Source of the DNA: a bacterium
Lineage (GTDB): Bacteria > Krumholzibacteriota > Krumholzibacteriia > G020349025
DNA: 47,427 nucleotides
Direction of reading: 5' to 3'
NCBI GenBank assembly: GCA_031362565.1
Contig: JANLSU010000053.1
Span: forward strand, 1 to 47,427
Shown: positions 38,073-47,427 of the stretch, one piece after another
Numbering within the stretch: the stretch's first letter is position 1
Layout of the letters: each line of letters starts with the position of its first letter
Notes under the pieces: generated by a model
Told to the model about the DNA's origin: nothing
Database searches by the model: none
Seen by the model: the letters and a program-made list of their open reading frames with translations, nothing else
Translations under genes and position numbers: made by a program

Positions 38073-38334
38073 CGTGAGTTCGTGGCCCGCGACTCCGTGC
38101 GGGTGGCTCCTCCCAGGGCCGAGAAGATTCCATTGGAACTCGTGAACGTTGCGAGTGCCGGCACCGCATTGCCGGCTGCCTGCCGCCGCGAGCCTCGCCG
38201 ACAGCCACTGTTGGGGAGCGCCACATCATATTTCTGCGTGTACGCGCTTGAACGTCCCAGCCGGTTGTTCGCGCGCACGTCGCCGCGGCGCCCCGGCTGG
38301 TCTCGATCGCGATTCACTTGCGAATACCCAAGTG
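38073..38334 (+). ncRNA. Candidate structured non-coding RNA of unknown family
   Basis: Begins at the expected TSS; stems 38073-81/38136-44, 38157-63/38170-76, 38257-64/38293-300, 38315-20/38329-34. Confidence 0.3.
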
Positions 38335-38441
38335 TCCCGACGTTATCCGTCGCGCGAGCGGGAGCCGAAGGTTCGGGTGTCTCGACGTGATCCGTCGAAG
38401 GGGCGCGAGGCCAGAGTTCGAGTGTCCCGACGTGATCCGTC
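38332..38441 (+). repeat. Three 20-bp hairpin repeats at exact 45-bp period
   Basis: GTGTCCCGACGTTATCCGTC (38332), GTGTCTCGACGTGATCCGTC (38377), GTGTCCCGACGTGATCCGTC (38422); 25-nt spacers. Confidence 0.9.
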
Positions 38442-38494
38442 TCGGGCGTAAGGCGAGGCGGGGCGGGGCGAAGAGCGGTCAGACTTGAACTTGG

Positions 38495-40042
38495 CTAGCG
38501 CACGTTCAGGTACATGAACGGCGGGATGCTGAGGCCGACGACGTTTTCGCCGCCGGTGAGCTCGCGGGCTTGGCCGAGGGCGTGTTTGAGGTTTGGTGCC
38601 CAGGATACACCCAGGCGTTTGGCCGAGACATCGTTCGGCGGCCCTACCAGGATGACGCGCGACAGATACTTCATCGGGTAGGTGGCCCAGTACCAAACCG
38701 TGAATGGATGGAAGCCGTGGTGTGCCCAGTGGTTGCGGTACGCATCGACCAACTGCGGGTCGCGCGCGAACTTGTCCTGGAACTGCCGCTGCATTTCGAA
38801 CGGGTCCTTGGTCGCCGGCAAGACCTCGTCCCAGAAGCGCTTGTAAGCCACATGGTACTCGGGGTGGAAGAATTCGAGGACCGGGTTCAGGATGATGGCG
38901 ACCCCACCCGGTTTCACGAACGGCTTGCCCCAGAACCAGTTGAAGACGTACCCGAGAACGTCACTCACGACGAGCACGGGATTGATTCGCGTCCCGACGG
39001 AATACGGTGAGAGATCCGGGAGGCCAAATACCATGGTGTCGAACTGCCGGTCGACATTCACCTCGAGCTGCGGCCGGAGTGCCGCCAAAGTGCGATCGTG
39101 CACGGCGTCGATATCGCCGGCATTGAACTCGAGCGCCCGGTATTCCGACTGCAAGCCTTTGAAGATGGAGAAACGCGTCGATTCGGGCAGCAAGCTCATG
39201 GCGGCCGGTGCCACGTTCTGGAGAAGGCGCTCGAGGCCGTTCGACTTCTCGGCGGGCCGCGACAGGAAGCTCATGTGGGGCGGATAGGTCGCGCCGTTCA
39301 TCGGGGCTTCCAGCACCATGATGCGCGTCTTGCGCTGGATGACGCGTGACAGGCGTTCGATGCTCGAGTGCATGTGCGACCCGTCAGGCTGCATGACATG
39401 CGGGCTGTCCTGGGTCATTTGCGGCGCATGGTGCGTGCGGATGCTGTCGTACGTCCCGAGCCCGACGGCGACCGACTTGTGGCCACCGTTCAACGGAATG
39501 GAGATCGTGTCGACGTAAATCACCAGATCGCTGTCGAGCACGGCGCGGGAGGTCTCGACCAGTTCGCCCTGCTCGGTCGTGCCCATGTTGACGATGTCGT
39601 CGCGGTCTTCGGCGTCGAAGTTGCGCAACTGATGGGGGTGGTATTCGGCGAAAATCCGCTTGCCCACCATGAACTCGAGTTCGGCGGGCTTCATCTTGCG
39701 GTGTAACGCCACCGCGCACATGAGCTGCAGGTTCTTTTTCTGCACGCCGTAGGAGTCGAGCATGGCGAGCAATGCCTCGAGGCAGAGCTCGCGGATGTCC
39801 GGCGGCCGGAGCGGCGGAAAAGGCTGGCAGTTGTCGTCGAAGCAAATGAGGATTTTGGAGTCTCGCGCCACGAGCTCGCGAAGCGGCGGCATGCCGAGGG
39901 GGTTTTCGAACGCCTTGCGGACCGCGGCGGCGACGTCGCGATTGGCGATGCCGGGCAAAGCCGGCGGCGGAAACAGCACCCGCGCGGTGGGGGGCAGCTC
40001 GGCATGCACGAGGCTGTTCCCTGAATACGTGAGGTAGCGCAT
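38495..40042 (-). CDS. LarA-superfamily (DUF2088, lactate-racemase-like) protein
   Basis: ENPLGMPPL, FDDNCQP, ALHR, GGHKS, RTHH, GDIDAVH, KPGGVAI; SD GGAG. Confidence 0.85.
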   Translation of the reverse strand: MRYLTYSGNSLVHAELPPTARVLFPPPALPGIANRDVAAAVRKAFENPLGMPPLRELVARDSKILICFDDNCQPFPPLRPPDIRELCLEALLAMLDSYGVQKKNLQLMCAVALHRKMKPAELEFMVGKRIFAEYHPHQLRNFDAEDRDDIVNMGTTEQGELVETSRAVLDSDLVIYVDTISIPLNGGHKSVAVGLGTYDSIRTHHAPQMTQDSPHVMQPDGSHMHSSIERLSRVIQRKTRIMVLEAPMNGATYPPHMSFLSRPAEKSNGLERLLQNVAPAAMSLLPESTRFSIFKGLQSEYRALEFNAGDIDAVHDRTLAALRPQLEVNVDRQFDTMVFGLPDLSPYSVGTRINPVLVVSDVLGYVFNWFWGKPFVKPGGVAIILNPVLEFFHPEYHVAYKRFWDEVLPATKDPFEMQRQFQDKFARDPQLVDAYRNHWAHHGFHPFTVWYWATYPMKYLSRVILVGPPNDVSAKRLGVSWAPNLKHALGQARELTGGENVVGLSIPPFMYLNVR

Positions 40043-40057
40043 CCGCTTCTCCAAGGG

Positions 40058-41248
40058 TCAGGGCGCGAAGACGGTTTTCATGATGCCGGCGCGGCCGGCG
40101 TTCAGAGCGCCGTGAATAGCCTCACGGTAACGCTCCAACGGATAACGCGCGCCGGTGACGGTCGCCAGCGGTTCGACGAGTCCCTGCACGACGTCGATGG
40201 CGCGGCGGAACGTTGGTGTCGTGCTGGTGTATGCGCCGCGGACCACGAGTTCCTTGTGCCAGATCGAAGTCCAGTCGATGCCGCGTGGAATCGACGGCAT
40301 GCCGACCAAGATAACGGAGCCGTGATGGCGCGTAAAGCGGAGCGCGTCATCGAGGCTGCGGTCGGAGCCGACGCAGTCGAAGGTCACATCGGTGCCGCCG
40401 ATGAGCACCGGTCGTCCGAGCTCGGGCTTGAAGAGCCGCGCCCCGAGTAGCGCGAGGAGGCCTTCGAGCATGTCGCGCGGTGCAAGCACATGATCGGCGC
40501 CCAAGGCGGCCGCGAGCCGCTGTTGGTGCGGGTACTTGGCGACCGTGATGATGCGCGCCCGTGAACCGACGGCGCGGATGGCGGCGATGGTGAGCGCGCC
40601 GATGGTGCCCGCACCCAGCACGAGGGCGGTCGCTGTGTCGGCGGGCGGTGCCAACTGGACCGCGTGCAGGCAACAACTAAAGGGCTCGACGAGGACCGCG
40701 ACTTCGTTTGGAACTGCAGCGGGCACCGGGTGCAACTGCCGCGGGTGGGCGACGAAACTGTTGCTCCAGCCGCCGCCGGTATCGCGGCAGAATCCGGTTT
40801 GAATGCCCGGCGCCAAGCAGCCGTCCATGACGTTGTGGCAATGCGAGCGGTGCCCCTCGGCGCAGGCCGGGCAAAGCGGTGTGATACCGCGGAGCGCGCA
40901 GTGCAAGGGTGGCTCGAGGACGACACGATCGCCGACTTTGACCCCGTCGGCTTCGGGCCCCAGTTCAGCCACTTCGCCCACGACCTCGTGGCCGAAGGTA
41001 AATGGACAGGAGGTGAACGGCGAGAAATAGGTCGAGCCCTGAGCCGTGAGTGTTGCGAGATCCGAACCGCACACGCCGGCCAGGAGCGGCCGCACTCGCA
41101 CCCACGAGGGCGCCGGGAGCTTTGGTGGCGCGGCATTCGACAGGCGCAACGTGCCGAACGGCGAAGTATAGAGCGCCGGGAATCGCGGCCCCGCAAGCCG
41201 CGCCGTCAGGTACCGCGGCACGCTGCGTAAATACTCGAGGGCCATCAT
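40058..41248 (-). CDS. Zinc-dependent alcohol dehydrogenase (MDR)
   Basis: GVCGSD, GHE, C..CPAC..C, EP, GAGTIG; start overlaps the HAD stop. Confidence 0.92.
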   Translation of the reverse strand: MMALEYLRSVPRYLTARLAGPRFPALYTSPFGTLRLSNAAPPKLPAPSWVRVRPLLAGVCGSDLATLTAQGSTYFSPFTSCPFTFGHEVVGEVAELGPEADGVKVGDRVVLEPPLHCALRGITPLCPACAEGHRSHCHNVMDGCLAPGIQTGFCRDTGGGWSNSFVAHPRQLHPVPAAVPNEVAVLVEPFSCCLHAVQLAPPADTATALVLGAGTIGALTIAAIRAVGSRARIITVAKYPHQQRLAAALGADHVLAPRDMLEGLLALLGARLFKPELGRPVLIGGTDVTFDCVGSDRSLDDALRFTRHHGSVILVGMPSIPRGIDWTSIWHKELVVRGAYTSTTPTFRRAIDVVQGLVEPLATVTGARYPLERYREAIHGALNAGRAGIMKTVFAP

Positions 41249-41919
41249 CGTGAGGGGCTCCAACGCAAAATATCCCAGCCACGCGTCGTGGCGATGTGAG
41301 CCAGACGCCGGCTCGGATTCACGACGCCGGCGTGGCCGACGCTGCCCAACATCGGTACGTCGTCCATACTGTCGGCGTAGGCCCAACAGATGCTGGGGTC
41401 GAGCCCACGGCGCGTGACGCACTCGGTCACGGCGGCCGCCTTGCGTGCATGGGCGATGGGCCCATCGACCAGACGGCCCGTCAACCGTCCATCGCGTTCT
41501 TCCATGTCGGGGGCGAGTAGTTCGGTGGCTCGGAGCCGCGCCGCGAGCGGCGCGACGACTGTTCGCAGTGAACCGGTGACGAGGACGACGGCATCGCCAC
41601 GCTCTTGGTGCAGGCGCACGCGCGCCTCCGCCCCCGGGAACAAGCGTGGCTGCAAGAACCGTTCGGCATGGATGCGCGCCCGGCGCTCCAACTCGGCAAC
41701 GCTGAAACCGCGATAGTTGCCGTAGAGGGCACGCTGAAAGCGCGGCCGGCTCCAGGCATCGAGGGCGAGATAGTAAGGGACACGCAACGCGAACAGCGCG
41801 GTCCACAGGGCGCGCCTGGTGGGCGAGAACTCCAACGTTCGCAGGTTGACGTAGTAGCGCACGATATTGCCCGCGACGAGTGTCCCGTCGACGTCGAAGA
41901 ACGCCGCGGCGCCGCTCAT
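41245..41919 (-). CDS. HAD-IB family phosphatase
   Basis: FFDVDGTL, VTGS, conserved K, YADSMDD; ATGA overlap with the upstream gene. Confidence 0.92.
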   Translation of the reverse strand: MSGAAAFFDVDGTLVAGNIVRYYVNLRTLEFSPTRRALWTALFALRVPYYLALDAWSRPRFQRALYGNYRGFSVAELERRARIHAERFLQPRLFPGAEARVRLHQERGDAVVLVTGSLRTVVAPLAARLRATELLAPDMEERDGRLTGRLVDGPIAHARKAAAVTECVTRRGLDPSICWAYADSMDDVPMLGSVGHAGVVNPSRRLAHIATTRGWDILRWSPSR

Positions 41920-44900
41920 TCGGGCCGGGACGCGAGCGCGGCGATGCGCTCGCGCACGTCCTGGGCAATGCGGCGGTACAGCTCTTCCTTGGAACCGTTG
42001 GCGTTCAAGCGATAGCGTTCCATCGGCATCGGTGTCCCGAAGCGCACCCGCACGCGGCCCGGCTTGGGGAACATTTGGCCGGCCGGCAGCACTGCATACG
42101 TGCCGTCGATGCGCGCCGGCACGACAGCCGTGTTGGTCTCGTAGGCGAGCAACCCGAGCCCGGCCTTGAAAGCCTGCATTTCGCCGCTCCGTGAGCGCGT
42201 TGCTTCCGGAAAGATGAGAACCGGTTCGCCGGCCGCCAGAATGCTCTTGGCGACCCGCAGTCCATCGAGCCCGGTCTGGTCGCGCCGAATCGGCACGACA
42301 TTGAAACAGCGGCTGAAGAACCAGCTCTTGGGTTTCGTGTCGAAGAAGTAGTCACGCGCGCCCAGCACGTGCAGGCGTGCGGCGGCATCGCGGCCGTGCG
42401 TCGCGGCGACCGCCGAGAACACCGCCCCCACATCCAAGTGGCTGGTGTGATTGGCGGCGATGATATAGGCGCCCGTTGCCGGCAGCATGCCGTCCACCTG
42501 CGGCGGGTCGAGCTTGAGATACGTGCGGTAGAACGTCCCGAGCCCCGAGATCGAAGTGCGCAAGAGCGCCAAATCCATCGGCGAGCGCTGATGGGTCGGG
42601 AACGACGACGGGAAGGACTCGACCCGCGCTGCCTGCGTGCCGGCCCGGGCCGCGGCCACCTCTTGGAACAAATCGCCGACCGTGCGCACCGCTTCGATCC
42701 GTTCGTCCGAAACCGCGACCCCAAAGTGCGCTTCCATGAAGAGCAGGAGTTCGACCGCTTCGAGAGAATCCAATCCCAGGTCGCCGAAGATCTGGCTGTC
42801 GGACCGGATGTCGCTTGCGGGCACACCCGAAAGGCGCGCCAACTCGTCGACCAGTGCACCGTCCTGCGCGCCATCGACCACCGCTGCCGCCGGCGCTGCG
42901 CCACTCGGGGCGCGCCGGCCGACTTCGCCGAGCACTTTCTGCAACACGACGTCGCGGCGCAGTTCGCCCTCGGCATCGCGTGGCAACGCCTCATGCCAAA
43001 GGTGAACTTGTTGCAACCGGTGGTAGCTCGGCAGTTCCTTGCCGAGGGCCTGCAAATCGCGCTGCAGCTGTTTGCGGAGGTCGGCGGCGGGCATCTCGCC
43101 GAGCGCCGATTCCTCCGGCACCACGGCCGCATGCACCTCTTCGGTGAGCCCGCTCTTGACCCCGACGACGCAGATCTCTCGCACCCCCGGCACGCGCGCG
43201 TAGATGCCCTCGAGATCGCCGGGGTACACATTCTTGCCCGCGCCCGTAACGATGACGTCCTTGATGCGGCCCGAGATGTACACGTAGCCTTCTTCGTCGA
43301 CCCACCCCAAGTCGCCGGTATGGAACCAGCCGGCGCGCACGACCTTGGCGGTCGCCTTGGGATTCGCCCAGTACTCGCGCATCAAACTCGGGGTGCGAAC
43401 GACGATTTCGCCGATCCCGTCGCGGTCCGGATGCGACAGGCGTAATTCGACCCCGGGCAGCGGCTTGCCCACCGAGCCGGCGCGCGACTTGCCGTCCGGA
43501 TTGAACGTCAGCACCGGCGCCGTTTCCGTCAGCCCATAGCCTTCGTAGATTGGAATGCCGAGAGCGTTGAAGTCGTCGTACAACTCTTTGCCGAGCGCCG
43601 AACCGCCGCTGACGACAAACCGCAGCCCCGCCCCGATCTCGCTTCGCACTCGCCCGATCGCCGCCCGGTTCCAGCGCCGCGCCGGCCGTGGACTCGGCTT
43701 CGCGGTCGCGCCAGTCGCCGCGCCCGCGCCATTCGCGCCGTTCATCGTCGCGCCGCCGCGGGCCACCGAGCGCTCCACCTTCATCACCCGCCGCTCGAGG
43801 TCCTCGCGCATGAGCGCATACAGCGTCGGCACGCCGAGCATCATCGTCGTGCCGGTCTCGCGCATCGTCTCGAACATGGCCTTGGGCTTGAGCGCTCCCG
43901 CATAGGTCACCGTGGCGCCGAGCCACAAGGGCGTCAAGAAACCGCACGTGAACTCGAGGGCGTGATACAAAGGCAGCACCGACAACACTTGATCGCGCTC
44001 GTCGAGCGGTGGCGTATAGCGCAGCACGCCGAACACATTGGCGAGGAAGCTGCGATGCGTGTGCACCGCACCCTTGGGATCGCTCGCCGTGCCACTCGTG
44101 AAGATGATCGATGCCGCATCATCGGCACCGATGATGCTGTCGTCCGCCGGACGCATCACGGCCGCGGCGCCGCGCGCCACCGGCGTGTAGCCTTCGATCT
44201 CGAGCGGCGCCGCGCTGCGGTTGACGCTCAGAATCTGCACCGGCTCGGGGGTGGCGTCGTTTTCGGCGAGCGCCTCGGGCGTCAGCCGTTTGGCACACAC
44301 GTCCGAGACGACGAGGGCCCGCGCGCCGGTGAAACGCGCAATCGCCCAAACCTCCGGCGGCCACGCCTGCCAATCGAGCGGCACGACGATGACACCCAAA
44401 AGGGCCGCACCGAGCGCCGTCATGCCCCACTCCGGCTGATTCTCCGACCACAGAACGATGCGGTCGCCCTTCTGCAAGCCAAGCGCCCGCAACCGTTCGC
44501 ACACCGCATCGGCGCCGCGCTCGACATCCTGGAACGAGTGCCGTTCCCAGACCCCACCGCGGCGCATTTGCAGCGCCGTCTTGGTGCCGAAACGTGCCGC
44601 GCTGCGCCGCAGCAATTCGCCGATCGTCGCTGGCCGGGCGGCGCCGTCCGCGGTCTCCGGAAGTTCGCCGTTGTCCCCTTCGATCTTGAGGATGTAGCGC
44701 TTCATTCCCGGGATGTGCACGTTTTGGATGTAGTGCCGCCAATTGAGCCGCGTCACGTCGAACGGGAAGGCGCGCTTCTCGTCCTCGTCCATCGACTCGA
44801 ACAATTCCATCAACCGGTCGACTTCGAAACGGCATTCGATGTTCAAATACGGTTCGTAGATCTCGCCGTAGTAGTACAGCTTGTCGAACGCCGCGCGCGT

Positions 44901-46277
44901 CGCCGACACGCGCCGCTTGGCCTTGGTCGCGGCATCGAGCCCCGGGAAGCGGTCGAGCGCCTTCTCCGCCGATTCGAGCGGCGCGCGCCGTAGCCGGTGC
45001 TGCAAGCGAAACGCGCTCTTGCTGGGGAAGCGCAGGTACTTGATGCGGATCGGCTGTCCCGCCTTGTCGGTCATCGGATTGCGAATGAAATACCGGTAGA
45101 TGAGATCGTAGAGGTCGCCGAGCGTGATCGGATTGCGCGATCCGGTCGCCACTTGATAGCAGGCGACCCCGCCGCGCTCTGCCAGACGCGGGATCGCGGC
45201 GAGCAGTGCGTTGACCACCATGTCGACCGGCACCAAGTCCAGGTTGACGTCGGGCTTGAGCGGCAACGCCCGCAACCGCCCCTTGCCGATGGCAACGATG
45301 AGCGGATCCGCCATGCGGAGCCCGTCGAGCCAGCCCGGAATCGGCTCTGAAAGGCTGCTCTCGATGACCGACGGGCGCACGATCGCGATCGGGATGTCGC
45401 CGCGCGCTCGCACCACGACCTGCTCGCCGAGCGCTTTCGTGTACGTGTACGTGTCGTTCCAGCCGCGCTCACGCGCCCAAGCCATGCCTTCGGCGACCAG
45501 TTTGTTCTGCAGCCATTTCTTGCGCAGACTCTCGATGGCCTTGCGGCGCCCTGACGACTTGCCGCTCTTCGCACTGCGCGACCGCTCGACCAGCACGCGC
45601 AAGAGCGCCCGCTCGACCTCCGGGTCCTGCGACTCGGCCTCGCAGCGCGCAATGATCTCGCGAATGCGGGCGACGTCGCGCGCCGGGTCGCCGATGTAGC
45701 CGCGCGGAAATTCTTCGACCGAGCCGGCCGGCGCCGTGTGGTAGAGCGTCTCCGGAGCGATCGCATGCGAGGCGCCGGCGACATAAGCGGTCGACACATG
45801 CACCAGAACCGCTTTGCGGCAGGAGGCCGCGAACGCCGCGACGCGTTCCGCGCCCATCACATTCAATTGCAGGGCCTCGTCGAGCGCCGCGTCGAAGCTC
45901 ACGACCGCGGCACTATTGATGACGATGTCGACGCTCGACCGCAGGCGGGCTGCCGTCTCGGGATCCAGCCCGAGGCCGTCCATGGAGATGTCCCCGCCGA
46001 CCGCCACCAGGCGGGACCGGATGAAGGCGTCGAATTCCGCTCCATAGATGGAGCGCAGGGGGTCGAAGACGCTCGACTCGTAGAGTTCCTTCTCGAGCCG
46101 CTTTTCGGGCGTCAGAACGACCCCGGGCGATTGACGCTTCGGACGGATCAAGACATGGATCCGCGCCACACCAGGTGCCGCGTGCAGGATCTTTTCGACG
46201 AGAGGCTGGCCCAGGAACCCGGTTGCTCCGGTGATGAGCAGGGTCTTCCCGTCCAGGTAGACGGAGGTCCTATTCAT
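41916..46277 (-). CDS. ElbD-like multidomain enzyme: fatty acyl reductase (NAD_binding_4 + Sterile), AMP-binding acyl-CoA/ACP synthetase, ACP, PlsC-type acyltransferase
   Basis: TGATGFLG and YTYTK (FAR); FTSGTASDPKG, YGLTET, TGDLG, GR.KD (AMP-binding); LGLDSL (ACP Ser); NHTSHLD and FPEATRS (acyltransferase); 1453 aa. Confidence 0.93.
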   Translation of the reverse strand: MNRTSVYLDGKTLLITGATGFLGQPLVEKILHAAPGVARIHVLIRPKRQSPGVVLTPEKRLEKELYESSVFDPLRSIYGAEFDAFIRSRLVAVGGDISMDGLGLDPETAARLRSSVDIVINSAAVVSFDAALDEALQLNVMGAERVAAFAASCRKAVLVHVSTAYVAGASHAIAPETLYHTAPAGSVEEFPRGYIGDPARDVARIREIIARCEAESQDPEVERALLRVLVERSRSAKSGKSSGRRKAIESLRKKWLQNKLVAEGMAWARERGWNDTYTYTKALGEQVVVRARGDIPIAIVRPSVIESSLSEPIPGWLDGLRMADPLIVAIGKGRLRALPLKPDVNLDLVPVDMVVNALLAAIPRLAERGGVACYQVATGSRNPITLGDLYDLIYRYFIRNPMTDKAGQPIRIKYLRFPSKSAFRLQHRLRRAPLESAEKALDRFPGLDAATKAKRRVSATRAAFDKLYYYGEIYEPYLNIECRFEVDRLMELFESMDEDEKRAFPFDVTRLNWRHYIQNVHIPGMKRYILKIEGDNGELPETADGAARPATIGELLRRSAARFGTKTALQMRRGGVWERHSFQDVERGADAVCERLRALGLQKGDRIVLWSENQPEWGMTALGAALLGVIVVPLDWQAWPPEVWAIARFTGARALVVSDVCAKRLTPEALAENDATPEPVQILSVNRSAAPLEIEGYTPVARGAAAVMRPADDSIIGADDAASIIFTSGTASDPKGAVHTHRSFLANVFGVLRYTPPLDERDQVLSVLPLYHALEFTCGFLTPLWLGATVTYAGALKPKAMFETMRETGTTMMLGVPTLYALMREDLERRVMKVERSVARGGATMNGANGAGAATGATAKPSPRPARRWNRAAIGRVRSEIGAGLRFVVSGGSALGKELYDDFNALGIPIYEGYGLTETAPVLTFNPDGKSRAGSVGKPLPGVELRLSHPDRDGIGEIVVRTPSLMREYWANPKATAKVVRAGWFHTGDLGWVDEEGYVYISGRIKDVIVTGAGKNVYPGDLEGIYARVPGVREICVVGVKSGLTEEVHAAVVPEESALGEMPAADLRKQLQRDLQALGKELPSYHRLQQVHLWHEALPRDAEGELRRDVVLQKVLGEVGRRAPSGAAPAAAVVDGAQDGALVDELARLSGVPASDIRSDSQIFGDLGLDSLEAVELLLFMEAHFGVAVSDERIEAVRTVGDLFQEVAAARAGTQAARVESFPSSFPTHQRSPMDLALLRTSISGLGTFYRTYLKLDPPQVDGMLPATGAYIIAANHTSHLDVGAVFSAVAATHGRDAAARLHVLGARDYFFDTKPKSWFFSRCFNVVPIRRDQTGLDGLRVAKSILAAGEPVLIFPEATRSRSGEMQAFKAGLGLLAYETNTAVVPARIDGTYAVLPAGQMFPKPGRVRVRFGTPMPMERYRLNANGSKEELYRRIAQDVRERIAALASRPE

Positions 46278-46422: not shown

Positions 46423-46452
46423 TCGGCCACAACTGGGGGTTCGGCCACAACT
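46423..46452. repeat. 12-bp direct repeat (2 copies, 18-bp period)
   Basis: TCGGCCACAACT at 46423-46434 and 46441-46452. Confidence 0.8.
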
Positions 46453-46801
46453 AGCGCAACGTCACATAATCCAGCAGGTCGAGCATTTTCAGCACGCTCA
46501 GGATATCGGGCGACACATCGCACAGGGCCACGTCGCCACCCAGCTCCCGGGCCTCGCCGATGAGCGCGATCAGGCTGCCGACCCCCATGCTGCTGATGAA
46601 CGGCACTTCCCGGAGCTCGATCTCGACGTTCCGCTGCCCCTGCTTGAGCAGGCCGCGGACGCACTCGATCAAGATGGGGCCGCTATCGACGTCCAAGTGC
46701 CCCGTCACAGCGAGCCGTATGCCGCCGCCGGCCGGTGCGGGGCCCCGCACGATCCCGAACGTTGCGCCTTGATGTAACACCTGTTCGTCCGGAGTACTCA
46801 C
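46451..46801 (-). CDS. STAS-domain anti-sigma factor antagonist (RsbV/SpoIIAA-like)
   Basis: GHLD, FISSMGVGSL, GGDVALC, VLKMLDL; GTG start after SD AAGGAGG, overlapping the upstream stop. Confidence 0.88.
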   Translation of the reverse strand: MSTPDEQVLHQGATFGIVRGPAPAGGGIRLAVTGHLDVDSGPILIECVRGLLKQGQRNVEIELREVPFISSMGVGSLIALIGEARELGGDVALCDVSPDILSVLKMLDLLDYVTLR

Positions 46802-47427
46802 TGGGACACCTCCTTCCCGAAGGTCAAACAGTTGCCGGTGCCGTCGAACGAGTGGTCGAACGTTCCCAAGATCTTCCCCACGAGATGCATTCCATACCCG
46901 CGCACGCTGTGGCCGGCAACAAGATCCGGCACCGGGACCGGCCGCCAGGCGGCGGGATCGAACCGCGCGCACTCATCGCGGATCCAGCCTCGCACACCGC
47001 GTGGGTCGAGCACGAGCCCGACTTCGACCTCGGTGGCGGCCCGCAACGGCCGGCCGTGCTCGAGCACGTTGGCGAGCAGCTCGTAGAGGGCAAGTCGAAC
47101 GTGCAGCAGTGGTTCGTTCCAGTTGGGATGGGTCGCGAGTGCGAGTGCGACAAAAGCCGACAGCGGCCGCAAGCTCTCCAGAGAGTGCGGGACCCGCAGG
47201 CGGTATTCCGCCCGGTCGTCGAGCGCCAAGCTTTGTGGACAGAGAAGCGCGCCGCGTTCACTGCCGAACGGGTTTTGCACCGCGAACACGCGCGTCGCGC
47301 CCGCTGCATCCAGAACACGAATCTCGCTCAACGCGAGGGCGCGCGCCAGGCCGATCGAGCGCTCGATCGGCGCCGCGACGGAATCAAAACTGTCGGCACC
47401 ATCGACGACGAACTCGGCGCAGGCGCG
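46798..47427 (-). CDS. Anti-sigma factor Ser kinase (RsbW-like HATPase_c), 5'-partial
   Basis: ELLANVLEHG (N-box), RD...FDP, RGYGM; frame stays open from 47331 to the window edge. Confidence 0.85.
   Translation of the reverse strand, partial: RACAEFVVDGADSFDSVAAPIERSIGLARALALSEIRVLDAAGATRVFAVQNPFGSERGALLCPQSLALDDRAEYRLRVPHSLESLRPLSAFVALALATHPNWNEPLLHVRLALYELLANVLEHGRPLRAATEVEVGLVLDPRGVRGWIRDECARFDPAAWRPVPVPDLVAGHSVRGYGMHLVGKILGTFDHSFDGTGNCLTFGKEVSQ

What the first reader, a model, noticed from the sequence alone, without database searches (positions are those of the whole stretch)
38495..46277. Elb-like ether/alkyl-lipid biosynthesis operon in a probable non-myxobacterial lineage
Seen: four tightly coupled minus-strand genes (two start/stop overlaps, one 15-nt gap) encoding a FAR-AMP-binding-ACP-PlsC megaenzyme with intact motifs, a HAD-IB phosphatase, a Zn-ADH and a LarA/DUF2088 protein. 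Known: this domain combination defines Myxococcus xanthus ElbD, which is involved in bacterial ether-lipid synthesis. Inference: the operon could form a self-contained route of acyl activation, reduction to fatty alcohol, acylation of G3P/DHAP, redox steps and dephosphorylation, giving alkylglycerol lipids. Surrounding genes point to an FCB-group candidate phylum, which would make it an unrecognised source of bacterial ether lipids. No AGPS-type FAD enzyme or radical-SAM enzyme is in the window, so the ether-forming step is unexplained.
Basis: partly seen in the sequence, partly recalled or inferred. Interest (0 to 1): 0.85.

Follow-up and report, generated by a model that had tools for sequence, protein, structure and literature searches.

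The report
Nickel-linked ether-lipid operon variant
This is a real four-gene variant of the known bacterial ether-lipid (elb) operon in an uncultured bacterium, and its make-up points to a nickel-cofactor protein as the still-unidentified enzyme that forms the ether bond.

Summary
The four coupled genes are real. They form an elb-type operon: ElbD-like megaenzyme, HAD phosphatase, Zn-dehydrogenase and a LarA-family protein. The LarA-family protein is a homologue of ElbC, because M. xanthus MXAN_1529 (elbC) is LarAH group 15. The host is most likely Krumholzibacteriota, not a myxobacterium. That is little news: elb genes are already reported outside myxobacteria, and this gene order occurs in 15 of 51 related loci.

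The value is mechanistic. ElbC keeps the nickel-pincer (NPN) anchoring Lys/His in 120 of 120 close homologues but lacks the racemase's second His. Of 50 ElbC-bearing genomes, 48 have LarC and 39 have neither AGPS nor Ger. The Zn-dehydrogenase (39) and the ElbE-type SDR (7) never co-occur. ElbD's adenylation lysine is missing in 19 of 19 dehydrogenase-type copies, so its motifs are not all intact.

Best model: ElbD supplies the reduced chain, NPN-ElbC makes 1-O-alkyl-DHAP, the dehydrogenase reduces C2, then acylation and dephosphorylation follow. No chemistry was shown.

The parts
41916..46277 (-). ElbD-like megaenzyme, 1453 aa: fatty acyl reductase (aa 15-531), adenylation domain (556-1104; A10 Lys replaced by Glu1105), ACP (1142-1203), PlsC/GNPAT-type acyltransferase (1264-1390)
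   Evidence: Pfam; motifs; 52.6% identical over 1467 columns to a Gemmatimonadota ElbD (L051) and 31.5% to an ElbD in myxobacterial gene order (G143); acyltransferase domain matches PDB 5kym PlsC
41245..41919 (-). HAD-IB phosphatase (ElbB-like), 224 aa, DxD motif; ATGA overlap with elbD
   Evidence: PF12710 E 5e-38; TIGR01490 over cut-off; junction
40058..41248 (-). Zn-dependent medium-chain dehydrogenase, 396 aa; proposed NADPH-dependent alkyl-DHAP (C2 ketone) reductase standing in for ElbE
   Evidence: Pfam; Zn-ligand-type residues C60/H87/E88 and C117/C126/C129/C137 conserved in at least 95% of 30 aligned orthologues; closest solved relatives are mostly polyol/ketose/threonine dehydrogenases, and Ala237-Lys238 aligns with Ala-Arg of the NADP(H) ketose reductase 1e3j; never found with ElbE in 50 genomes
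38495..40042 (-). ElbC homologue, 515 aa: LarA-superfamily protein with NPN anchors (D70, K189, H205) and one catalytic His (H114); proposed ether-forming enzyme
   Evidence: PF09861; NF052592 full length, 515 bits, under the 740 cut-off; alignment to 9Q2U; conservation; model pLDDT 96, best fold match 9Q3K TM 0.81; MXAN_1529 = LarAH group 15

Best explanation
The operon makes 1-O-alkyl glycerolipids by an Elb route that needs neither AGPS nor Ger. (1) An acyl chain is loaded on the ElbD ACP, probably from acyl-CoA made elsewhere because the adenylation lysine is lost (inferred). (2) The FAR domain reduces it with NADPH to fatty aldehyde or alcohol (inferred from family). (3) ElbC, carrying a covalently tethered nickel-pincer nucleotide made by the unlinked larB/C/E, joins the chain to a triose phosphate in a redox-neutral step giving 1-O-alkyl-DHAP. 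It does so either by lending a hydride from C2 of G3P to a hemiacetal formed with the fatty aldehyde, or by AGPS-like exchange of acyl-DHAP with fatty alcohol (inferred; no chemistry shown). (4) The Zn-dehydrogenase, in place of ElbE, reduces the C2 ketone to 1-O-alkyl-G3P (inferred). (5) The ElbD acyltransferase acylates sn-2 (or makes the acyl-DHAP), and the HAD removes the phosphate to give alkyl-acyl-glycerol (inferred). Shown here: genes, domains, residues, fold and co-occurrence. My odds are about 0.8 that the product is an ether lipid, 0.65 that ElbC binds NPN, and 0.5 for the whole assignment.
For: ElbD domain order is as described for M. xanthus ElbD, whose loss strongly reduces ether lipids (PMC9131029 passages). 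elbA-E = MXAN_1531-1527, so elbC = MXAN_1529, listed as LarAH group 15 with D72/H108/K184/H200 and no H174/K298 (PMC7583248 Dataset S2). Proteins over the NF052592 cut-off align full length with the window protein at 33-37%. K189, H205 and H114 are invariant in 120 of 120 close homologues and D70 in 117 of 120; the Arg75 position is Gln in 120 of 120. The His174/Asn185 position is Ile182, while Tyr307 and His401 of holo LarA_Sp map to Y347 and H445, invariant in 67 of 67 rows. The closest fold is the one-His LarA_Sp (TM 0.81, against 0.64 for canonical LarA), which lies beside triose-phosphate isomerase and carries a covalent 316.5-Da ligand (PMC12611868). G000 has larB, larC and larE over cut-off and a single Lar_N gene, this one. 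LarC is in 48 of 50 ElbC genomes (24 of 24 Gemmatimonadota-labelled) against 104 of 151 in a Gemmatimonadota sample. An ElbD-type FAR is in 41 of 50, with a split FAR + ACP-AMP cluster in the three Bryobacterales neighbourhoods opened. A Ger-like gene is in 10 of 50 and a strong AGPS-like gene in 1 of 50; 14 of the 15 full-operon genomes show neither. The Zn-ADH is in 39 of 50 and the ElbE-like SDR in 7 of 50, with none holding both. G143 has elbC-elbD-elbE and no ADH hit. Published contexts agree: group 14 has COG1063 in 7 of 8; group 15 has COG0451 and no COG1063.
Against: No lipid, enzyme or cofactor data exist for this locus. No elbC mutant is mentioned in the review passages read. Frankia LarAH14 was inactive in seven racemase assays, which fits a non-racemase but shows no activity. 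LarC is common without ElbC (74 of 155 genomes of the host phylum, 4 of 4 of its family; 102 of 149 in the Gemmatimonadota sample), so larBCE is permissive rather than proof, and the genomes are related, so the Fisher p-values overstate. All 7 ElbE genomes are Acidobacteriota/Bryobacterales, so the exclusion rests on few independent events. G000 itself has a 1366-aa DUF2229 (Ger/PlsA-like) gene that could make ethers. Many MAGs are 1.3-3 Mb with completeness not shown, so absences are weak. In Poribacteria, Bryobacterales and one Phycisphaerae locus ElbC is not next to elbD. The loss of Arg75, which binds the NPN phosphate in LarA, could mean weaker cofactor binding. Many more distant relatives have lost K184/H200 altogether. 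Pontiella carries elbD hits yet makes no ether lipids (PMC11868695).
Confidence: 0.5

Rival explanations
1. The operon makes ether lipids, but ElbC is accessory, for example a one-way NPN epimerase or isomerase supplying a triose or hydroxy-acid precursor. The ether bond is formed by ElbD itself or by an unlinked enzyme such as the host's Ger/PlsA-like protein.
For: elbD alone rescued elbD insertions. G000 has a Ger-like gene. One-His LarAHs were proposed to be unidirectional epimerases in sugar metabolism. ElbC is unlinked from elbD in several phyla. Relatives in the host's own family have a FAR/HAD/ligase/acyltransferase cluster with no LarA-type gene.
Against: 40 of 50 ElbC genomes have no Ger-like hit, including all 15 with the full operon. 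ElbD has no domain known to form ethers, and no acyltransferase or alcohol product was seen in vitro. elbB insertions were only partly rescued by elbD, as expected if downstream elbC/elbE matter (the inference is mine).
Confidence: 0.25
2. The cluster makes wax esters or other neutral ester lipids: FAR and the Zn-ADH give fatty alcohol, which is then acylated, and HAD yields diacylglycerol.
For: FAR plus an alcohol dehydrogenase plus an acyltransferase is formally enough. elbD carriers without ether lipids exist.
Against: The acyltransferase is PlsC-type, not a wax synthase. The dehydrogenase resembles secondary-alcohol/ketose reductases. A wax route leaves ElbC unexplained. The only member studied genetically makes ethers.
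Confidence: 0.12
3. The pathway makes ether lipids as above, but the ElbC clade has lost NPN use and acts as a cofactor-free enzyme or scaffold, and/or the Zn-ADH reduces fatty aldehyde to alcohol rather than the C2 ketone.
For: Arg75 and Lys298 equivalents are lost. Degenerate family members are frequent. 2 of 50 ElbC genomes gave no LarC hit. Only aldehyde, not alcohol, was linked to ElbD in M. xanthus.
Against: The Lys that tethers NPN and the His that binds nickel are invariant in 120 of 120. The LarC association is 48 of 50. The ADH swaps with an epimerase-type SDR and matches ketose reductases best.
Confidence: 0.13

Closest known systems
Myxococcus xanthus elbABCDE ether-lipid operon (MXAN_1531-1527; MIBiG BGC0000871)
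   Same: ElbD with FAR-ACS-ACP-acyltransferase in one chain; a HAD gene (elbB); a LarA-family gene (elbC, MXAN_1529, LarAH group 15); an NAD(P)-dependent oxidoreductase slot.
   Different: Order is elbD-HAD-ADH-elbC. There is no elbA/elbE SDR (best G000 hit 29%); a Zn-dehydrogenase stands in its place. ElbC belongs to a sister clade (under the NF052592 cut-off; separate branch). The adenylation A10 lysine is missing. The M. xanthus ElbD sequence itself could not be fetched for direct alignment.
LarAH groups 14/15 (Desguin 2020, PMC7583248; NCBIfam NF052592)
   Same: D72/H108/K184/H200 kept, H174/K298 lost. The group 14 context (acyltransferase, HAD, COG1063, thioester reductase) is the same four-part set.
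   Different: 33-37% identity to members over the cut-off; score 515 against a cut-off of 740; Gln rather than an aliphatic residue at Arg75. The paper passages read do not link these groups to ether lipids. 'LarAH15' of PMC11770544 is a different, Phytophthora enzyme.
One-histidine LarA_Sp / LarA_Bw (PDB 9Q2U, 9Q3K, 9Q3J; PMC12611868)
   Same: Best sequence and fold match among solved structures (E 7e-36; TM 0.81); shares H115, K195, H211, D73, Y307 and H401 equivalents.
   Different: About 21% identity; Asn185 is Ile, His306 is Pro and Lys76 is Gln here; their neighbours are glycolytic, not lipid, genes.
AGPS route (animals; M. xanthus MXAN_1676-1674)
   Same: Proposed logic: fatty alcohol or aldehyde, alkyl-DHAP, C2 reduction, acylation, dephosphorylation.
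   Different: No FAD-dependent AGPS is encoded: the only FAD-oxidase_C gene of G000 is GlcD beside GlcE. The ether step is assigned to a nickel-pincer protein by inference.
elb-like clusters of sponge Poribacteria and Acidobacteriota (PMC9426513; 10.64898/2026.06.23.733905)
   Same: ElbD plus HAD outside myxobacteria, including split elbD forms.
   Different: Those reports describe many clusters with only elbD and elbB. Here the Poribacteria genomes carry the ElbC and Zn-ADH orthologues elsewhere on the chromosome.

Membership tests
elb ether-lipid operon | ElbD with FAR, acyl-CoA synthetase, ACP and acyltransferase domains in that order | tested here: met
   Pfam against the description in PMC9131029
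elb ether-lipid operon | Catalytically complete adenylation domain | tested here: inconclusive
   YGLTET, GDLG and GRIKD motifs present; A10 Lys is Glu1105 and absent in 19 of 19 ADH-type proteins; activity not testable
elb ether-lipid operon | HAD phosphatase (elbB) in the cluster | tested here: met
elb ether-lipid operon | elbC homologue in the cluster | tested here: met
   MXAN_1529 is LarAH group 15; the window protein matches NF052592 over its whole length and aligns with members over the cut-off
elb ether-lipid operon | elbE (NAD-dependent epimerase/dehydratase SDR) | tested here: not met
   None in the operon; best G000 hit to ElbE-like queries 29%; a Zn-ADH is present instead and excludes ElbE in 50 genomes
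elb ether-lipid operon | Direct sequence grouping with M. xanthus ElbD | tested here: inconclusive
   M. xanthus ElbD was not available; 31.5% full-length identity to an ElbD in elbC-D-E order (G143); no ElbD tree was built
elb ether-lipid operon | Production of alkyl-ether lipids dependent on the genes | not testable with these tools
   needs lipid analysis
LarA superfamily (NPN enzymes) | LarA two-domain fold and Lar_N domain | tested here: met
LarA superfamily (NPN enzymes) | NPN-tethering Lys184, Ni-binding His200, Asp72 | tested here: met
   K189 and H205 in 120 of 120, D70 in 117 of 120
LarA superfamily (NPN enzymes) | larB, larC, larE in the genome | tested here: met
   (contigs C90, C75)
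LarA superfamily (NPN enzymes) | Cofactor actually bound | not testable with these tools
   needs mass spectrometry and metal analysis
2-hydroxy-acid racemase (canonical LarA) | Second catalytic His174 and carboxylate-binding Arg75 | tested here: not met
   Ile182 and Gln73
NCBIfam NF052592 LarAH14/15/16 equivalog | Score above 740 bits | tested here: not met
   514.9 bits; separate clade in the FastTree
AGPS-dependent ether-lipid route | FAD-dependent alkyl-DHAP synthase in the genome | tested here: not met
   (G000 is 100% complete by markers)

The most novel reading that the evidence does not exclude
ElbC is a nickel-pincer-dependent ether synthase: the first NPN enzyme that is not a racemase or epimerase, and a third enzymatic way (beside FAD-AGPS and Ger/PlsA) to form the alkyl-glycerol ether bond. 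It would shuttle a hydride between a triose phosphate and a fatty-aldehyde hemiacetal. This four-gene operon would be the minimal set, with a Zn-dehydrogenase replacing ElbE, and would make Elb-type ether-lipid synthesis depend on nickel.
Probability: 0.35. Interest if true: 0.9.

Novelty: new variant of a known kind. Interest (0 to 1): 0.62.

Why it matters
[quoted passage not shown] This compact operon, in genomes mostly without AGPS or Ger, leaves one gene with no assigned step, and that gene carries nickel-pincer anchors. This turns the open question into simple genetics in a cultured organism (elbC, larC/larE, nickel). It also gives better markers than an elbD BLAST hit (ElbC plus ADH or ElbE plus larBCE) for finding environmental ether-lipid producers. 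The occurrence in one more candidate phylum matters little.

Tried and rejected
Novelty from a non-myxobacterial host: rejected. AGPS elsewhere in G000: the single PF02913 hit is GlcD, and an AGPS-like query from G226 finds nothing better. A CarF/PEDS1 search (PF10520) gave 0 of 5 genomes but rang in no control either, so it shows nothing. Mis-binning or very recent transfer: not supported; GC3 is 0.80-0.85 against 0.86 for typA and the tetranucleotide distance is at the 10th percentile of 628 genome windows, although 1 of 155 genomes of the phylum has this ElbC. larBCE as proof of NPN use: downgraded after the controls. The plasmid collection gave only canonical LarA-like hits at 21-30%. No sigma-70 promoter on the operon strand and no terminator excess. 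No RNA holder was listed; this is no evidence. Four-genome RpoB comparison: Eisenbacteria 81%, Latescibacterota and Gemmatimonadota 78%, Poribacteria 68% on 7 shared segments, with no Krumholzibacteriota reference and a frameshifted Eisenbacteria gene, so it was superseded. The TypA comparison was uninformative. The Lorenzen 2014 paper and a 2023 Rubrobacterales lipid paper were not held. No complex prediction was run.
Full report
OBSERVATION. The four genes are in the sequence as described: 46277-41916 (1453 aa), 41919-41245 (224 aa), 41248-40058 (396 aa) and 40042-38495 (515 aa), all on the minus strand. They are joined by two ATGA overlaps and a 15-nt gap with GGAG. Pfam gives FAR (NAD_binding_4 + Sterile), AMP-binding, PP-binding and Acyltransferase in the large protein, then HAD, Zn-ADH and Lar_N. 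Each gene is single-copy in the 5.4-Mb genome G000, apart from weak paralogues. One correction applies to 'intact motifs'. The last adenylation motif reads Gly-Glu1105 where ANL ligases have Gly-Lys (role of this lysine recalled). None of 19 aligned ElbD proteins from dehydrogenase-type genomes (the window, 15 from the L001-L051 loci, 2 Poribacteria, G203) has Lys there. The ElbD of G143 and the Bryobacterales ACP-ligase, both from ElbE-type clusters, keep it. The FAR, ACP and acyltransferase motifs are intact.

HOST. G000 is 65% GC, 100% complete by markers. Of the 120 best RpoB hits, 12 carry an organism label: 5 Krumholzibacteria/-ota, 5 Latescibacteria/-ota, 1 'bacterium' and 1 Bacteroidales, at 67-70% identity. 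The 7 nearest hits (84-92%) have no organism label. The host is therefore an FCB-affiliated candidate phylum, most likely Krumholzibacteriota; two earlier scan notes on this genome say the same. Only G000 among 155 genomes of its phylum has this ElbC at E 1e-40, yet composition is genome-typical. An old transfer, or loss in relatives, is likely (inference).

DISTRIBUTION. The LarA-like protein fetched 51 loci at 53-68% identity, labelled Gemmatimonadota, Poribacteria, Acidobacteriota, Eisenbacteria, Latescibacterota, Phycisphaerae or unassigned. The full chain elbD-HAD-ADH-elbC is present in 15 of 51 (14 Gemmatimonadota-labelled, 1 unassigned). Eight more show part of the chain up to a contig end (L001, L024, L028, L030, L031, L032, L038, L043), and two Eisenbacteria loci have ADH-elbC with HAD and a stand-alone FAR upstream. 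The operon is patchy: 2 of 151 sampled Gemmatimonadota genomes have an ElbC hit at 1e-60.

WHAT THE FOURTH GENE IS. elbA-E are MXAN_1531-1527 (PMC13012113, passages) and elbD is MXAN_1528 (PMC11980068, passage), so elbC is MXAN_1529; a review calls it a protein of unknown function (PMC9131029, passages). Dataset S2 of PMC7583248 lists MXAN_1529 as LarA homologue group 15, with D72, H108, K184 and H200 kept and H174 and K298 lost (supplement rows). Table S1 gives group 15 the neighbours epimerase-type SDR, HAD and acyl-CoA synthetase, and group 14 acyltransferase, HAD, COG1063 and thioester reductase (supplement 2, part 1). The table labels COG1063 a phosphatase; I recall it as Zn-dependent dehydrogenases. 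[quoted passage not shown] The window protein matches NF052592 over its whole length at 515 bits, under the 740 cut-off. Proteins over that cut-off align with it full length at 33-37%, one from a cluster labelled Myxococcales. In a FastTree it lies in a sister clade to them. Among 120 close homologues, H114, K189 and H205 are invariant, D70 is kept in 117, and the Arg75 position is Gln in 120. Against holo LarA_Sp (9Q2U), D73/H115/K195/H211/Y307/H401 map to D70/H114/K189/H205/Y347/H445, and Asn185, which stands where His174 would be, maps to Ile182 (alignment; residue roles from PMC12611868, parts 1-3 of 5 read). The model (pLDDT 96.3) matches 9Q3K best (TM 0.81) and canonical LarA less well (0.64). 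LarA_Sp lies beside triose-phosphate isomerase and carries an unidentified covalent ligand.

CO-OCCURRENCE TESTS. These used the genomes behind 50 of the 51 loci; L024 was left out to meet a size limit. LarC: 48 of 50, and 24 of 24 Gemmatimonadota-labelled. Controls: 104 of 151 sampled Gemmatimonadota and 74 of 155 genomes of the host phylum, including 4 of 4 of its family, which lack ElbC. The cofactor pathway is thus nearly always present with ElbC but also common without it. G000 has larB, larC, larE and one Lar_N gene. ElbD-type FAR: 41 of 50 at 1e-30. Five of the nine misses were retested; four gave Sterile hits under the cut-off, and the three neighbourhoods opened are split elb clusters. 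Zn-ADH orthologue: 39 of 50. ElbE-like SDR, queried with the gene after elbC-elbD in G143: 7 of 50. None has both, four have neither (two of them cut at contig ends), and G143 has no ADH hit. All seven ElbE genomes are Acidobacteriota, so the exclusion rests on few independent events. Ger/PlsA-like DUF2229: 10 of 50, and also G000. AGPS-like: one strong gene, in G226, confirmed against PDB. Used as query, it found only itself and 13 weak Poribacteria hits (30-32%, 462-495 aa); the one checked is closer to GlcD. So 39 of 50 genomes, and 14 of the 15 with the full operon, show neither known ether-forming enzyme; many are small MAGs, so absences are soft.

THE DEHYDROGENASE. Zn-ligand-type residues are conserved in at least 95% of 30 orthologues. 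Its 15 best PDB matches are mostly threonine, sorbitol/ketose, idonate, galactitol-1-phosphate and butanediol dehydrogenases, which act on secondary alcohols. After the second Rossmann strand it has Ala237-Lys238, aligned with Ala-Arg of the NADP(H) ketose reductase 1e3j, where threonine dehydrogenase has Glu and idonate dehydrogenase has Asp nearby. This suggests an NADPH-dependent ketone reductase (inference).

MECHANISM. Shown: genes, domains, residues, fold and distributions. From literature: elbD loss strongly reduces ether lipids; ACS and ACP activity were confirmed in vitro; an aldehyde but no alcohol was linked to ElbD; elbE inactivation lowers ether lipids; elbB insertions were only partly rescued by elbD (all via the review; the primary paper was not held). 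Inferred: chain reduction by FAR; ether formation by NPN-ElbC to give 1-O-alkyl-DHAP; C2 reduction by the ADH or ElbE; acylation; dephosphorylation. Both candidate reactions for ElbC are redox-neutral (G3P + fatty aldehyde, or acyl-DHAP + fatty alcohol). That suits a tethered, non-exchanging hydride carrier with one catalytic base and no carboxylate site. The first version also fits the aldehyde finding. I put the whole assignment at 0.5; the rivals are an accessory ElbC (0.25), a cofactor-free ElbC or aldehyde-reducing ADH (0.13) and wax/ester products (0.12).

NOVELTY. elb genes outside myxobacteria are in print. elbD BLAST hits are reported in Latescibacterota (50 of 92 MAGs), AABM5-125-24 and others, by a loose 30% criterion (PMC11868695, passages; no mention of Krumholzibacteriota or Gemmatimonadota in its main text). 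Clusters are reported in Poribacteria and Acidobacteriota (PMC9426513 passages; 10.64898/2026.06.23.733905 parts 1-3 of 6; its supplements are closed and may show these variants). I did not find the ElbC-NPN link in print: 'lactate racemase' + 'ether lipid' gave 0 papers, 'nickel-pincer' + 'ether lipid' one haloarchaeal annotation paper (listing only), and 'elbC' + 'elbD' only the review. Subscription papers, including the primary elb work and papers on Acidobacteria and Rubrobacter lipids, were not searchable. The scan itself noted the ElbC-LarA link four times on other DNA. I had reached it before looking (note); these notes are not independent support. Other papers seen: PMC11770544 (passages and a supplement row: larAH genes in 15 of 17 Myxococcota) and PMC10087280 (passages).

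VERDICT. A new variant of a known kind: elb operon, Zn-dehydrogenase type, with a degenerate adenylation lysine. The lineage claim is ordinary. The interest (0.62) lies in making the open ether-forming step of the Elb pathway directly testable, with the practical point that larBCE and nickel must be supplied.

Noticed in passing
L162:5362-16509 (G008), L163:5214-16941 (G006), L164:5141-16687 (G010); same family as the host: A different FAR lipid cluster with no ElbC or Zn-ADH: HAD-FAR fusion, second thioester-reductase/SDR, polysaccharide-pyruvyl-transferase-like protein (PF04230), AMP ligase, enoyl-CoA hydratase-like protein, ACP, second ligase, acyltransferase. It is absent from G000. It may be yet another way to link a fatty alcohol to a C3 unit, using PEP (speculation).
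   Followed up: partly
L131:7619-15018 (G049), L132, L133 (Bryobacterales): Split elb-like cluster: FAR, ACP-AMP ligase, PlsY, HAD, ElbE-like SDR, DAG kinase, with the ElbC orthologue elsewhere in the genome. This is of interest because Solibacter usitatus is said to lack ElbD (PMC10087280 passage).
   Followed up: partly
L136, L137 and L006-L020, L044 (Poribacteria): elbD-HAD sit alone, while ElbC and Zn-ADH orthologues lie elsewhere in the chromosome. This may complete the 'elbD + elbB only' sponge clusters.
   Followed up: partly
L007:2116-12453, L010:1996-12438 (Eisenbacteria-labelled): Stand-alone FAR, unknown ORF, HAD, unknown membrane-like ORF, ADH, ElbC, DAG kinase; no adenylation or acyltransferase hit in the locus.
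   Followed up: partly
G000:C55:42319-46416 (L139): 1366-aa open frame with DUF2229, a Ger/PlsA-like candidate for a second ether or plasmalogen route in the host.
   Followed up: partly
window 38332-38466: Three imperfect 45-nt direct repeats in tandem just downstream of the elbC stop.
   Followed up: no
window 46451-47427: STAS anti-anti-sigma and anti-sigma (HATPase_c_2) genes on the same strand directly upstream of elbD; possible stress-linked regulation, untested.
   Followed up: no
P0146 (cluster of 13): ElbC-type LarA protein fused to a chlorophyll a/b-binding domain, probably a eukaryotic gene model or a fusion artefact; hints at algal ElbC homologues.
   Followed up: no
proteins P0121-P0269: Many distant ElbC-family representatives lack the NPN lysine and histidines (Lys in 39 of 77 full-length rows), suggesting pseudo-enzyme partners like LarAH group 16.
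   Followed up: no
G000, G046 phylum samples: LarC is present in 104 of 151 Gemmatimonadota and 74 of 155 host-phylum genomes, mostly without this ElbC; their NPN client enzymes were not looked for.
   Followed up: no
G000 whole genome: About 200 ORFs match the window's FlgD-like C-terminal domains.
   Followed up: no
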